A stretch of DNA of 5,369 bases from a virus (taxonomy: Duplodnaviria; Heunggongvirae; Uroviricota; Caudoviricetes), in the IMG/VR virus record IMGVR_UViG_2619619126_000002, positions 1 through 5,369 of that record; one strand, written 5' to 3'. Below are positions 3,001 to 5,369 of the stretch, in pieces (position 1 is the stretch's first letter; each line of letters starts with the position of its first letter). The position numbers were made by a program.

Positions 3001-5369
3001 AATGGTGATTGCATATATCCTCCAAATATTGCGTGTTATGCATGTTATTTCACGCAAGTATTTTGCGCAAGTTGATTTGCTTATCACGCAATAAAGAAAT
3101 GTAATAAACGCATGAACATAGGAAACCGAGTCAGACAACTTCGCCAAGCGAAGAACATGAAAATCGCCGATCTCGCTGAAGCAATAGGAGTAGATGCGGC
3201 GAACATCTCGCGCTTAGAAACGGGTAAGCAGAAACAATTTACCGAACAAACACTGAGTAATATTGCCAAGAGCTTAGGTGTTGATATTGCTGATCTCTTT
3301 ACCTCTGCCCTCAAAAGTAATACTGTATATAAAAACAGTAATAATGAGGATGTTGCGCAGGTGAAGGATGTGTTCCGTATTGAAATGCTGGATATCAGTG
3401 CCAGTGCGGGAAATGGCCTTATCCAGGGCGGTGATGTCATTGATGTGATTCATGCCATCGAATACAGAACTGATAATGCTGTATCAATGTTCGGCGGACG
3501 ACCAGCCAATCACATCAAAGTTATCAACGTTCGTGGGGACAGTATGTGTCCAACCATTGAGCCAGGAGATCTCATCTTCGTCGATGTCAGCATCAATCAG
3601 TTTGATGGTGATGGTATATATGTCTTTGGTTTTGATGACAAAATATACGTTAAAAGACTTCAAATGATTCCTGACAAACTGCTGGTGATTTCTGATAACC
3701 AGATTTACCGTGAATGGGGAATTACTAGCGAAAACGAACACCGATTCATGGTCTTTGGAAAGGTCTTAATCAGTCAGTCGCAAACCCTTAAGAGACATAA
3801 TTAACCTCAATATCCCATCCATCGGCCACCGAAAGGTGGCTTTTTATCACCTATAATTTTGCATATCTCGCAAAATACTACTTGCATATCTCGCAATTTA
3901 ATTTTAACTTTTGTTCCAGACCAACTACAGGATTACAACAAAATCGGGTTGCAACACGGTGCATGGTGCATGTGTCGTAAGCGGTCAGTAAATGTCAAAA
4001 ACGAACAGGCAGGACGCCCACGAAGTAGCCGCCTCGGGCATATGAAGTCCAGGATGATTCGTTAGCAACAAAAAAGCGCCCTACAGGACGCTTAGCTCTT
4101 TAACAATCTGGTCCCCATCAACAAGTAACTGATAACTTGAGGAGGTGTGAAATGCACAAAACAGAACCAAAAATCGTCGCGCCTGGCTACACAGATGAGG
4201 AAATTTATGAGTGGATGACAAAGAAGCTGGCAGCTATAAACCAGCTTCGTGAAGTGCTGTCTTATCGACAGGAAACAATAGACTCCTTAAAAAAACTGGA
4301 TCAGGAAATCACGGTTTTATCACAGGATGTTACTTTAGATATTGTGCAGACAAATTAGGATCCCATTCATTTTCGTCAAAATCATCAAAGTGATGAATTT
4401 GTGATCTCCAGTCTCGATAATCTAAAAATTTCTGGGCGGTTACACTTATTTTATCAAGCGTGAGTTCATCCTGAATTGAAAGAAGAAGTTCATCAAATTT
4501 CATCTCATTAATCTGTTTTGGCATCCAGTGATGCTTCATCAGAATAAGGTGAACCAGAGCCTTTTTCCCATTCAACTGATTATAGGGTGTGCCGAATTTC
4601 TTCCGGTGCTCATTTAAGACAAGGTCCAGAAGAGTAAGTAATGTTGCCCTTGATTCAACTTTGCTTATTTCGACTGATGACACTACCCCACTGATTTCAA
4701 TGCCCCGATACTTTCCAACATTTTCACAGTGGGATTTGTACAGCGTATAGATATTACCGGACATTTCTTTTCCTTTTGCGTTGTTGGGGATAACCAGATT
4801 AACCGAATCCTTGTTGTTGGGGAATAACCAGGTCCACCTCGCCTGATGTGGCTAAAAGCAGGCACATAACAGCTAAGTATTTTCAACCAGAGAGAATCCT
4901 TAGCGTTGTGGTGAATGCGGCTCAGCGCACGCGGGTTAAGGTTGAGGCTGACAGTCGACCTTCTGTGGATACCCACCCGCCTGGTGTGCAACCTTCGCCA
5001 GGCACCGGGAGGCACCCGGCACCACAACTTTATGCTGTGTGTAGTCCTGGCGGTACCAGCTTGTACCCTTGCTTCCGGCTGGTACCGTCCTTTTTACAAA
5101 ACAGAGAAGAGCATCACCGGACGACGGGCTCATAACCCAATCCATCCGGGCGGCAGTCACCGCAGGTGTTCTTCTCTGTTTTGTGGAGAAACTAACCGAC
5201 CTTGCAGGGTCGATATGATGAGGAGCAGCAAAATGGCTAGCGAACGCAGTACTGATGTGCAGGCATTTATCGGGGAGCTGGACGGCGGCGTATTTGAAAC
5301 CAAAATCGGCGCAGTTCTCAGTGAAGTCGCTTCCGGTGTGATGAACACGAAAACCAAAGGTAAGGTCTC

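What the first reader, a model, noticed from the sequence alone, without database searches (positions are those of the whole stretch)
4070..4107. Dual-use hairpin: minus-strand terminator coinciding with a + strand hairpin followed by a perfect rrn-type boxA
On the + strand, A6, then hairpin GCGCCC-UACA-GGACGC, then 3 nt, then GCTCTTTAACAAT reproduces the boxB-boxA order of rrn antiterminator leaders. A 13-nt perfect match is unlikely by chance in 5.4 kb. It sits downstream of the OL-like operators and upstream of the first + strand gene, where lambdoid phages place nutL. The 68-aa protein has no arginine-rich motif, so antitermination may use host Nus factors on boxA or a factor encoded elsewhere.
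Basis: partly seen in the sequence, partly recalled or inferred. Interest (0 to 1): 0.6.

Follow-up and report, generated by a model that had tools for sequence, protein, structure and literature searches.

The report
Reverse terminator fused to phage boxA
Just after the repressor gene of an E. coli prophage lies a conserved 45-base module: a hairpin that stops transcripts coming from the opposite direction, joined to a perfect copy of the host boxA signal, which probably lets the phage's early-left transcript resist the termination factor Rho.

Summary
A6 lies at 4070-4075, the hairpin GCGCCC-TACA-GGACGC at 4076-4091, and GCTCTTTAACAAT at 4095-4107. This 13-mer is identical to the one in the K-12 rrnB leader.

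The "dual-use hairpin" reading is only half right. The hairpin is strand-asymmetric: a G.U pair on the minus strand is a C.A mismatch on the plus strand. It folds at -11.0 kcal/mol on the minus strand and -6.5 on the plus strand. All 38 natural variants fold better on the minus strand, and their loops vary freely. It is therefore a terminator for leftward transcripts, not a boxB analogue.

The boxA itself looks genuine:
- It fits the functional consensus GYTCTTTAANA.
- It is intact in 27 of 27 loci found through the hairpin alone.
- It lies downstream of, and co-oriented with, CI-type repressor genes in every context checked (14, of differing sequence).
- Its boxA plus spacer resembles P22 nutR, but no boxB or N-like protein accompanies it.

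The module occurs in 757 of 5426 complete E. coli genomes and in about 20 species of Enterobacterales. The most likely function is to load Nus factors that protect the pL transcript from Rho across about 870 untranslated bases. This is untested.

Immediately upstream, at 3998-4065, lies an unannotated RNA with strong covariation. It is also present in prophage e14 of K-12.

The parts
3824..3846 (+). [quoted passage not shown]
   Evidence: One search finds 7 pairs followed by a T-run. One search gives -13.2 kcal/mol (z -3.45). One search shows the 230-aa protein has HTH and Peptidase_S24 domains.
3859..3896 (.). Two exact 15-mer operator-like repeats, TTGCATATCTCGCAA (3859-3873 and 3882-3896), forming an OL/pL region. 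The promoter hexamers could not be pinned down.
   Evidence: One search finds 4 related sites (the other two in the cI/cro intergenic region), where 0.23 are expected. One search finds no promoter match of 9/12 or better here.
3998..4065 (+). Conserved structured leader RNA, here called R1. Helices: P1 4001-4005/4058-4062, P2 4008-4010/4016-4018, P3 4032-4036/4049-4053. There is one copy per phage, on the same strand as and downstream of the repressor gene. Function is unknown; a put-like role is a candidate.
   Evidence: 96.8% of cells are paired, 9 of 10 pairs covary, and 0 of 500 shuffles reach this. Searches give further support. One search finds no Rfam match. Searches find no match in HK022 or HK639.
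4068..4093 (-). Intrinsic terminator for leftward (minus-strand) transcripts: stem AAGCGUCC/GGGCGCUU including one G.U pair, loop UGUA, tail U6. On the plus strand the G.U becomes a C.A mismatch (C4079/A4088).
   Evidence: One search gives -11.0 kcal/mol on the minus strand and -6.5 on the plus strand. One search shows the same direction in 38 of 38 variants. In other phages it lies 5-20 nt after the stop codon of a minus-strand gene.
4095..4113 (+). boxA (GCTCTTTAACAAT, 4095-4107) plus a conserved spacer (..CTGGTC). This is the presumed NusB/NusE (and NusA) loading site on the pL transcript.
   Evidence: identical to rrnB. It fits the consensus GYTCTTTAANA (PMC5725501). It is intact in 27 of 27 hairpin-anchored loci. 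It matches the P22 nutR boxA-spacer at 17 of 19 positions.
4152..4358 (+). First plus-strand gene: 68 aa, phrog_1744, function unknown. A strong Shine-Dalgarno sequence, GAGGAGG, lies at 4139-4145, 31 nt after the boxA 13-mer.
   Evidence: (WP_000549623.1). Homologues follow the module in L130 and L213.
4330..4764 (-). Reverse-oriented gene (ECs1072 family, phrog_5286, 144 aa). Its transcript would end at the 4093->4068 terminator. On the plus strand this stretch is untranslated.
   Evidence: Every boxA-positive context has a minus-strand ORF downstream, and these ORFs belong to at least 4 unrelated families.
4875..5098 (+). STnc100-like non-coding stretch ending in a strong in-line hairpin (5049-5061/5077-5089) followed by CCUUUUU. 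It lies before yfdP (ATG at 5233).
   Evidence: 42.4 bits, below the gathering score of 47, E 6.5e-07.: -26.3 kcal/mol, z -4.1.

Best explanation
Positions 4068-4113 are a composite, mobile regulatory module in the early-left (pL) leader of a temperate phage of the e14/SfV/SfIV kind. It has two halves that work on opposite strands.

(1) The hairpin plus T6 is an intrinsic terminator for leftward (minus-strand) transcripts. Those transcripts come from the reverse-oriented accessory gene downstream (here ECs1072-family, 4764->4330). The terminator keeps them from running antisense into pL and the repressor gene. A conserved G.U pair, which is C.A on the plus strand, keeps the same hairpin weak in the pL direction, so it does not stop pL transcription.

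(2) Immediately after it on the pL transcript comes a consensus boxA with a P22-nutR-like spacer. This recruits host NusB/NusE(S10), which with NusA, NusG and SuhB forms an rrn- or CRISPR-type complex on RNA polymerase. No boxB and no N protein are involved. The complex makes the polymerase resistant to Rho. The pL transcript must cross about 870 nt of untranslated RNA (4359-5232) to reach yfdP...torI: the antisense of the reverse gene and the STnc100-like region.

Shown here: the sequence, the strand asymmetry, the conservation, the position, and the absence of boxB/N. Inferred: Nus binding and the anti-Rho effect.
For: The boxA is exact, unique and on the right strand. It fits the mutationally defined consensus GYTCTTTAANA (PMC5725501).

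Conservation:
- Anchoring on the upstream RNA, 27 of 123 loci carry the module at a fixed offset, with no change in GCTCTTTAA across 17 variants. Meanwhile the -1 base, the loop and the downstream flank vary.
- Anchoring on the hairpin alone, 27 of 27 loci keep the boxA.
- It occurs in about 20 Enterobacterales species genomes and in 757 of 5426 complete E. coli genomes.

Position and strand: in every context checked, the module lies downstream of and co-oriented with the repressor gene. 79 of 96 newly fetched module loci have the R1 leader RNA upstream on the same strand. In 9 of 9 R1-less loci the upstream ORF is a CI-type repressor 135-270 nt away.

Hairpin asymmetry. The A that causes it is kept in all but 2 hairpin variants.

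Need for Rho protection:
- All 12 distinct boxA-positive contexts have a minus-strand ORF of 300 nt or more within 2 kb downstream, against 57% of boxA-negative ones.
- Those ORFs belong to at least 4 unrelated families, so the module is not simply inherited with one gene.
- There is a C-rich, G-poor stretch at 4640-4760 on the plus strand.

Precedent: boxA alone suppresses Rho-dependent termination in rrn reporter constructs (PMC2724277) and protects long untranslated CRISPR arrays (PMC7665894).
Against: There are no expression or binding data.
- The pL promoter hexamers were not located.
- About three quarters of phages with the same leader RNA, including SfV, ST64B, ZF40 and e14, lack the boxA. 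Some of these also carry reverse genes. The boxA is therefore an add-on, not a necessity.
- rrn-type complexes act on Rho-dependent terminators only (PMC2724277), so the boxA cannot explain passage of the strong intrinsic hairpin at 5049-5096.
- Nus factors at a boxA can also repress translation and thereby promote Rho termination (suhB; PMC5725501), so the sign of the effect depends on context.
- The stem sequence is conserved without covariation, and the block ...AATCTGGAT(ATCC) is also conserved. This could reflect recent spread by recombination rather than selection on each base.
- The association with reverse genes rests on crude ORF calling and on about 7 independent contexts.
Confidence: 0.5

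Rival explanations
1. The boxA acts as an attenuator or translational repressor, as at suhB and in the lambda N leader. The Nus complex loaded at 4095-4107 loops the RNA to the polymerase and blocks ribosome entry at the Shine-Dalgarno sequence of the 68-aa gene, 31 nt downstream. The uncoupled transcript is then terminated by Rho. In this way pL-distal expression would be tied to the host's pool of Nus factors.
For: The boxA lies 44 nt (13-mer) or 46 nt (11-mer consensus) upstream of ATG 4152. In several other contexts a plus-strand gene with a good Shine-Dalgarno sequence starts 45-65 nt after the boxA. BoxA-mediated repression at suhB still works with up to 100 nt between boxA and Shine-Dalgarno (PMC5725501). 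The supplementary list of that paper has GCTCTTTAACA 31 nt upstream of hypothetical genes in E. coli UMN026 and E. fergusonii, which is the distance to the TTG at 4137 here.
Against: In many contexts no plus-strand gene follows the module. Instead the 3' end of a minus-strand gene follows directly (L004, L149, L139-type). A signal that promotes termination at the head of an operon carrying recombination, excision and integration genes has no obvious benefit. The two roles are not exclusive: lambda nutL does both.
Confidence: 0.15
2. The resemblance to boxA has no function. The conserved 45-nt block is a terminator with its flank. It persists because it serves as a short homology patch for recombination that swaps accessory genes between phages, or as a shared 3'UTR of the reverse genes.
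For: The module marks a mosaic boundary: at least 8 different downstream flanks and at least 5 different upstream leaders. The stem is conserved in sequence rather than covarying. Conservation extends past the boxA (..TCTGGATATCC).
Against: A conserved 28-nt block would contain GYTCTTTAANA on the pL-sense strand by chance with probability of about 1e-4. Variation within the block (C, A or G at the N position; A, C or T at -1) falls exactly on the positions the consensus leaves free. L137 has the boxA and spacer without the terminator, about 55 nt after a TTGACA/TACCTT promoter. Reverse terminators without a boxA exist in related loci. The boxA-spacer matches a proven nut site, P22 nutR.
Confidence: 0.15
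3. One reading: the hairpin works on both strands. It is a terminator on the minus strand and a boxB-like partner of boxA on the plus strand, as in the boxB-boxA order of rrn leaders.
For: The order and the 3-nt gap are the same as in rrnB. The plus-strand hairpin can still form at -6.5 kcal/mol. Hairpin and boxA are tightly linked (27 of 27). The sequence GGACGC of the 3' arm is almost invariant.
Against: The asymmetry always favours the minus strand. Some variants lose plus-strand pairing altogether, folding at only -2.2 to -2.5 kcal/mol. The loop sequence and length are free. The boxA occurs without the hairpin in L137. The rrn boxB is not needed for antitermination (PMC2724277).
Confidence: 0.07
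4. It is a true nut site for a phage antiterminator protein encoded elsewhere, with an unrecognised protein-binding element next to the boxA.
For: The boxA-spacer matches P22 nutR at 17 of 19 positions. The conserved TCTGGATATCC(CTAAC) after the boxA has no assigned role. Atypical phages such as mEp021 place their N-like gene in the right operon (PMC11893012).
Against: No conserved hairpin follows the boxA. The 8 downstream variants share no stem. No ARM-bearing small ORF lies within 2.5 kb downstream in 138 module loci, while P22 gp24 passes the same test. There is only one boxA in 18.6 kb of the prophage and none on the pR side. No annotated N-like gene is present.
Confidence: 0.08

Closest known systems
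rrn leader antiterminator (boxB-boxA-boxC; NusB/E, NusA, NusG, SuhB, S4)
   Same: The 13-mer GCTCTTTAACAAT is identical. A hairpin precedes it by 3 nt. No phage protein is implied. It is expected to act against Rho on untranslated RNA.
   Different: The hairpin here is a reverse-strand terminator that is weak on the sense strand. No boxC (UGUGUGGG) is conserved. The spacer is ACAAUCUGG rather than ACAAUUUA. The element sits in a phage pL leader.
Lambdoid nut sites, especially P22 nutR (CGCTCTTTACCAATCTGAA + boxB) and nutL
   Same: The position matches: after the repressor gene and operators, before the first early-left gene. The boxA plus spacer matches P22 nutR at 17 of 19 positions.
   Different: There is no boxB hairpin 3' of the boxA, no N/gp24-like ARM protein, and no second site on the pR side.
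boxA upstream of CRISPR arrays (Stringer et al. 2020, PMC7665894) and in the suhB 5'UTR (Baniulyte et al. 2017, PMC5725501)
   Same: It is a stand-alone consensus boxA outside rrn. It sits at the head of a long untranslated stretch, like the CRISPR case, and within 50 nt of a start codon, like suhB. The suhB paper's supplementary table probably already lists this element in two genomes.
   Different: It is phage-borne, mobile between phages of differing repressor sequence, and physically fused to a unidirectional reverse terminator.
HK022/HK639 put RNAs (for the neighbouring R1 RNA at 3998-4065)
   Same: R1 is about 65-70 nt long and is a cis element at the 5' end of the pL transcript of phages with no N gene. 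It has a highly conserved sequence and contains a GGAUGA motif.
   Different: R1 has a different architecture: a closing helix P1 around two hairpins, whereas put has two side-by-side stems. The covariance model finds nothing in HK022 or HK639. R1 is single-copy, with no pR-side partner.

Membership tests
boxA (NusB/NusE-binding RNA element) | Match to the functional consensus GYTCTTTAANA on the transcribed strand. | tested here: met
   GCTCTTTAACA at 4095-4105 matches. It is the only match in 18.6 kb. All natural variants (C, A or G at the N position) still fit the consensus.
boxA (NusB/NusE-binding RNA element) | Lies in a transcribed leader, sense to a promoter, and is single-stranded in the RNA. 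| tested here: inconclusive
   It is co-oriented with and downstream of the CI-type repressor gene and operators in every context examined. It is unpaired in the minimum-free-energy fold. The pL start site was not located in this window.
boxA (NusB/NusE-binding RNA element) | Binds NusB/NusE and recruits SuhB, NusA and NusG to the elongating polymerase; changes Rho-dependent termination. | not testable with these tools
   This needs binding assays, ChIP or reporter assays.
Lambda/P22-type nut site | A boxB hairpin with a conserved loop a few nt 3' of the boxA. | tested here: not met
   No shared stem was found in the 8 or more different sequences that follow the boxA. The only hairpin lies 5' of the boxA, and its loop varies freely.
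Lambda/P22-type nut site | A cognate N-like arginine-rich antiterminator protein. | tested here: not met
   The 68-aa first gene has 2 Arg residues and no Pfam match. No conserved ARM-bearing ORF lies within 2.5 kb in 138 loci, with P22 gp24 as a positive control. None is annotated in the prophage. A gene encoded elsewhere in the phage is not excluded.
rrn-type boxB-boxA-boxC leader | A sense-strand boxB hairpin conserved as a structure, and a boxC downstream. | tested here: not met
   The hairpin is constrained on the antisense strand. No conserved G/U-rich boxC is present.
Intrinsic (Rho-independent) terminator, minus strand | A G+C-rich stem, a short loop, a U-tract directly 3', and a location downstream of a gene on that strand. 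| tested here: met
   There are 8 pairs, a 4-nt loop and U6, folding at -11.0 kcal/mol. It lies 5-20 nt after minus-strand stop codons in L004, L149 and L139-type loci. It lies 240 nt after the ECs1072-family gene here.
put antiterminator RNA (for R1, 3998-4065) | Sequence or structure homology to HK022 putL/putR (two adjacent stem-loops). | tested here: not met
   Model R1 finds nothing in HK022 at E up to 1 or in HK639 at E up to 10, the latter including its annotated putL-like RNA. The consensus fold has a closing helix.
Rfam families | Any curated RNA family covering 3990-4115. | tested here: not met
   cmscan at E up to 1 returns only STnc100, at 4875-5098.

The most novel reading that the evidence does not exclude
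The pL leaders of a large group of N-less temperate phages of Enterobacterales (e14, SfV, SfII, SfIV, ST64B, ZF40 and many prophages) may carry a protein-free, modular antitermination system. The 68-nt R1 RNA would be a new class of cis-acting RNA that modifies RNA polymerase, working like HK022 put but unrelated to it, and would carry the polymerase past intrinsic terminators such as 5049-5096. The boxA cassette would be an optional second module that adds Rho resistance and travels together with reverse-oriented accessory genes and their one-way terminator. R1 would then be an unrecognised functional RNA even in E. coli K-12 (e14, between ymfK and ymfJ).
Probability: 0.25. Interest if true: 0.8.

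Novelty: new variant of a known kind. Interest (0 to 1): 0.5.

Why it matters
boxA is well studied in rrn operons and in N-dependent lambdoid phages. More recently it has been described at suhB and at CRISPR arrays. Here a stand-alone, consensus boxA appears as a mobile cassette in the early-left leader of many N-less temperate phages, including 14% of complete E. coli genomes. It is welded to a terminator that a single G.U/C.A position makes one-directional.

If it works as proposed, it shows how phages can insert reverse-oriented accessory genes into an operon without two costs: silencing of the immunity region by antisense transcription, and loss of the downstream operon to Rho. It would also give a simple natural design for a unidirectional terminator.

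The neighbouring R1 RNA is a well-supported but undescribed structured RNA. It offers a direct test of whether RNA-only antitermination extends beyond the put family.

Tried and rejected
1. R1 as a put homologue. A shared CGAAC...GGAUGA with HK022 putL looked promising. However, CGAA is merely one strand of a covarying helix, and the covariance model finds nothing in HK022 or HK639.

2. A second R1 copy or a second boxA on the pR side, by analogy with putR and nutR. None was found.

3. Rfam. Nothing covers 3990-4115.

4. King et al. 2011 (PMC3187212) on new put RNAs is not held. Its HK639 annotation was used instead.

5. A full-text search for the R1 core sequence found no paper.

6. Enrichment of in-line plus-strand terminators downstream of R1. 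My simple finder called even more sites on the minus strand (1.2 versus 2.8 per locus), so the test says nothing.

7. Whole-segment folding of 3985-4125 on either strand is no better than shuffles, with z +0.37 and +0.25. Structure shows only in comparative analysis.

8. A 3'UTR-derived small RNA or an 'anti-boxA' RNA from the minus strand was considered. The upstream (minus-sense) flanks and genes are unrelated, so no shared promoter or processing site is evident. It was not pursued.

9. Whether ECUMN_0866 and EFER_0580 in the Baniulyte table are this locus was not verified beyond the matching 31-nt distance.
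Full report
**Context.** The window is 100% identical to a chromosomal prophage of E. coli strain 300033. Its layout is that of the immunity region of an e14/SfV/SfIV-like temperate phage.
- On the minus strand: a Cro-like gene (3014->2754), a CII-like gene ymfL (2761->2204), a decayed replication gene, RusA and KilA-N.
- On the plus strand: a CI-type repressor with HTH and Peptidase_S24 domains (3112-3804) and its terminator (3824-3846).
- Two exact copies of the 15-mer TTGCATATCTCGCAA lie at 3859-3873 and 3882-3896. 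Related sites lie in the cI/cro intergenic region, 4 sites in all where 0.23 are expected. These are OL/OR-type operators.

The plus strand is therefore the 'leftward' (pL) direction. It continues through yfdP, yfdQ and yfdR to torI, an excisionase-type gene. I could not place the pL -35 and -10 hexamers with confidence.

**The observation.**
- A6 at 4070-4075
- GCGCCC at 4076-4081
- TACA at 4082-4085
- GGACGC at 4086-4091
- TTA at 4092-4094
- GCTCTTTAACAAT at 4095-4107

The 13-mer is unique in the window. It is the only match to the boxA consensus in 18.6 kb of the prophage. The K-12 rrnB leader reads GCCGCTGAGAAAAAGCGAAGCGGC-ACT-GCTCTTTAACAAT. The 13-mer and the 3-nt gap after a hairpin are thus faithfully reproduced. 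An exact 13-mer is expected about 1.6e-4 times in 5.4 kb.

**The hairpin belongs to the minus strand.** On the plus strand, C4079 faces A4088. On the minus strand the same position is a G.U pair.
- The minus RNA folds into 8 uninterrupted pairs at -11.0 kcal/mol, followed by U6. The plus RNA reaches only -6.5 kcal/mol, with a bulge.
- The terminator scan reports the site on the minus strand only.
- I collected the module from viral contigs and species genomes. All 38 distinct hairpin variants tested fold better on the minus strand, with medians of -10.4 and -5.7 kcal/mol.
- Variants such as ..GAACGC, ..TGACGC and ..GGACAC keep minus-strand pairing through extra G.U pairs. Their plus-strand hairpins nearly vanish.
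- The A that creates the asymmetry is replaced by G in only 2 hairpin variants, although G would strengthen the terminator.
- The loop is free in sequence and in length (3-7 nt, more than 20 versions).

This pattern fits a terminator selected to work in one direction only. It does not fit a boxB-type protein-binding hairpin. In several phages the hairpin lies 5-20 nt after the stop codon of a real minus-strand gene. For L004 versus L149 that gene shows conservative protein-level substitutions. In the window the nearest such gene is the ECs1072-family ORF (4764->4330).

**The boxA looks genuine.**
- It fits GYTCTTTAANA, the consensus derived from mutational and comparative work (PMC5725501).
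- Anchoring on the upstream RNA rather than on the boxA, 27 of 123 loci carry the module at the same offset. There is no substitution in GCTCTTTAA across 17 variants. The base before it (A, C or T), the loop and everything beyond ..AATCTGG vary.
- Anchoring on the hairpin alone, 27 of 27 loci keep the boxA.
- The N position of the consensus is C, A or G in nature.
- The module always lies downstream of, and on the same strand as, a repressor gene. 79 of 96 newly fetched module loci have the R1 leader RNA upstream in the same orientation, 24-700 nt away. In 9 of 9 R1-less loci the upstream ORF is a CI-type repressor of differing sequence, 135-270 nt away.
- L137 has the boxA and spacer about 55 nt after a TTGACA/TACCTT promoter with no hairpin. 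Related loci have reverse terminators with no boxA. The two halves are therefore separable.
- The boxA plus spacer (GCTCTTTAACAATCTGGA) matches the proven P22 nutR (GCTCTTTACCAATCTGAA) at 17 of 19 positions. P22's boxB is replaced by unrelated, variable sequence.
- No ARM-bearing small ORF follows within 2.5 kb in 138 loci, whereas P22 gp24 passes the same filter.
- The 68-aa first gene (phrog_1744) has no Pfam match and only two arginines.
- The module is common: 757 of 5426 complete E. coli genomes, with no annotation, and about 20 Enterobacterales species.
- A supplementary table of Baniulyte et al. lists GCTCTTTAACA 31 nt upstream of hypothetical genes in E. coli UMN026 and E. fergusonii. 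That is exactly the distance to the TTG at 4137, so the element has probably been catalogued but never discussed.

**Likely mechanism.** rrn-type boxA-spacer RNA is sufficient to suppress Rho-dependent terminators but not intrinsic ones (PMC2724277). A boxA protects long untranslated CRISPR arrays from Rho (PMC7665894).

Here the pL transcript is untranslated from 4359 to 5232, across the antisense of the reverse gene and an STnc100-like region. It contains a C-rich, G-poor stretch at 4640-4760.

All 12 distinct boxA-positive contexts carry a minus-strand ORF of 300 nt or more within 2 kb downstream, against 57% of boxA-negative contexts. These ORFs belong to at least four unrelated families. 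The ORF calling was crude and there are about 7 independent contexts.

I therefore read the module as a cassette that accompanies reverse-oriented accessory genes. The terminator protects pL and cI from their transcripts. The boxA protects the pL transcript from Rho while it crosses them.

This is inference; nothing here measures binding or termination. The main rival is the opposite sign of regulation. At suhB, Nus factors at a boxA repress translation up to 100 nt away and so promote Rho termination. The Shine-Dalgarno sequence of the 68-aa gene is 31 nt from the boxA.

**The leader contains more than the finding.** Directly upstream, 3998-4065 is a 68-nt element. Its 23-nt core recurs in SfV, SfII, SfIV, ST64B, ZF40, mEp460, mEp237, and in Yersinia, Klebsiella, Pantoea and Citrobacter phages.
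- In the annotated phages it always lies about 80-120 nt after the cI stop codon on the same strand. In SfV, e14, ZF40 and ST64B it lies within about 10-20 nt of the -10 hexamer.
- On 47 distinct sequences, two helices (P1 and P3) are 96.8% paired. Nine of ten pairs show changes on both sides. No shuffle and no slid register comes close.
- A third short helix, P2, gains one compensatory change in a wider alignment.
- G.U pairs, including a nearly invariant one, point to the plus strand.
- There is no Rfam match and no paper containing the sequence.
- There is no match in HK022 or in HK639, whose putL-like RNA is annotated.
- It is single-copy.
- It is present in 1476 of 5426 complete E. coli genomes and in K-12 prophage e14 between ymfK and ymfJ, at 73.9 bits.

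A strong in-line hairpin with a U-run lies at 5049-5096 (-26.3 kcal/mol). A terminator is annotated in the SfV left operon. The operon therefore needs processive antitermination that a boxA alone should not provide. A put-like role for R1 is thus attractive, but it is untested.

**Verdict.** The hairpin is a one-way reverse terminator rather than a boxB. The whole is a new variant of a known kind of signal. The most interesting lead lies just outside the finding's coordinates.

Noticed in passing
window 3998-4065 (+): A 68-nt structured RNA (R1) with strong covariation: 9 of 10 pairs covary and 96.8% of cells are paired. It lies at the 5' end of the pL leader. It has no Rfam match and no match in HK022 or HK639 put RNAs. 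It is present in SfV, SfII, SfIV, ST64B, ZF40, mEp460 and other phages, and in 27% of complete E. coli genomes.
   Followed up: yes
L333 5111-5179 (-) = NC_000913.3 1202110-1202178: E. coli K-12 prophage e14 carries R1 (73.9 bits) between ymfK (repressor) and ymfJ, right after a TTGACA/TAATGT promoter. Nothing is annotated there. e14 lacks the boxA module.
   Followed up: partly
window 4035: The window's R1 copy has C where nearly all relatives have G (CCTCG versus CCTGG). This breaks one P3 pair. Only 3 E. coli records share this version at 99% identity or more. The copy may be slightly impaired, in a prophage that also has frameshifted genes.
   Followed up: partly
L004 2455-2500; L130, L134, L170; also after R1 in L027, L067, L074: A second conserved leader motif, GGTG(C)GAcAGGTAAACGTTCCGCnGGCCnGCGATAaGGC. 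It lies between pL-like promoters and the boxA module, or in tandem after R1. It may be another leader RNA class. Its structure was not analysed.
   Followed up: no
window 4875-5098 (+): A sub-threshold Rfam hit to the sRNA STnc100 (42.4 bits against a gathering score of 47). It lies inside the pL operon before yfdP. It ends in a 13-bp hairpin (5049-5061/5077-5089, -26.3 kcal/mol) followed by CCUUUUU, an in-line intrinsic terminator.
   Followed up: partly
window 4223-4248 (-): A second terminator-like hairpin on the minus strand (9 pairs, -15.6 kcal/mol, weak U-tract). It lies inside the 68-aa plus-strand ORF, between the ECs1072-family gene and the main reverse terminator.
   Followed up: no
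L336 3938-3971 (P22 nutR) versus window 4095-4113: The P22 nutR boxA-spacer CGCTCTTTACCAATCTGAA is nearly the same as the module's GCTCTTTAACAATCTGGA. This suggests the module derives from a lambdoid nut site that lost its boxB.
   Followed up: partly
window 4108-4125 and module variants: Conservation continues past the boxA as TCTGGATATCC(CTAAC) in most variants. This includes the palindrome GGATATCC. The window has TCTGGTCCCCATCAAC instead. No role has been assigned.
   Followed up: no
window 1553-1860 and L001 4540-5528: RefSeq marks a truncated LexA-family fragment, a truncated HTH gene and a frameshifted DUF968 gene. The prophage is partly decayed.
   Followed up: no
PMC5725501 Supplementary Data 1: The table lists GCTCTTTAACA 31 nt upstream of hypothetical genes ECUMN_0866 (E. 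coli UMN026) and EFER_0580 (E. fergusonii). This equals the distance from the boxA to the TTG at 4137, so it is probably this same module, catalogued but not discussed.
   Followed up: partly
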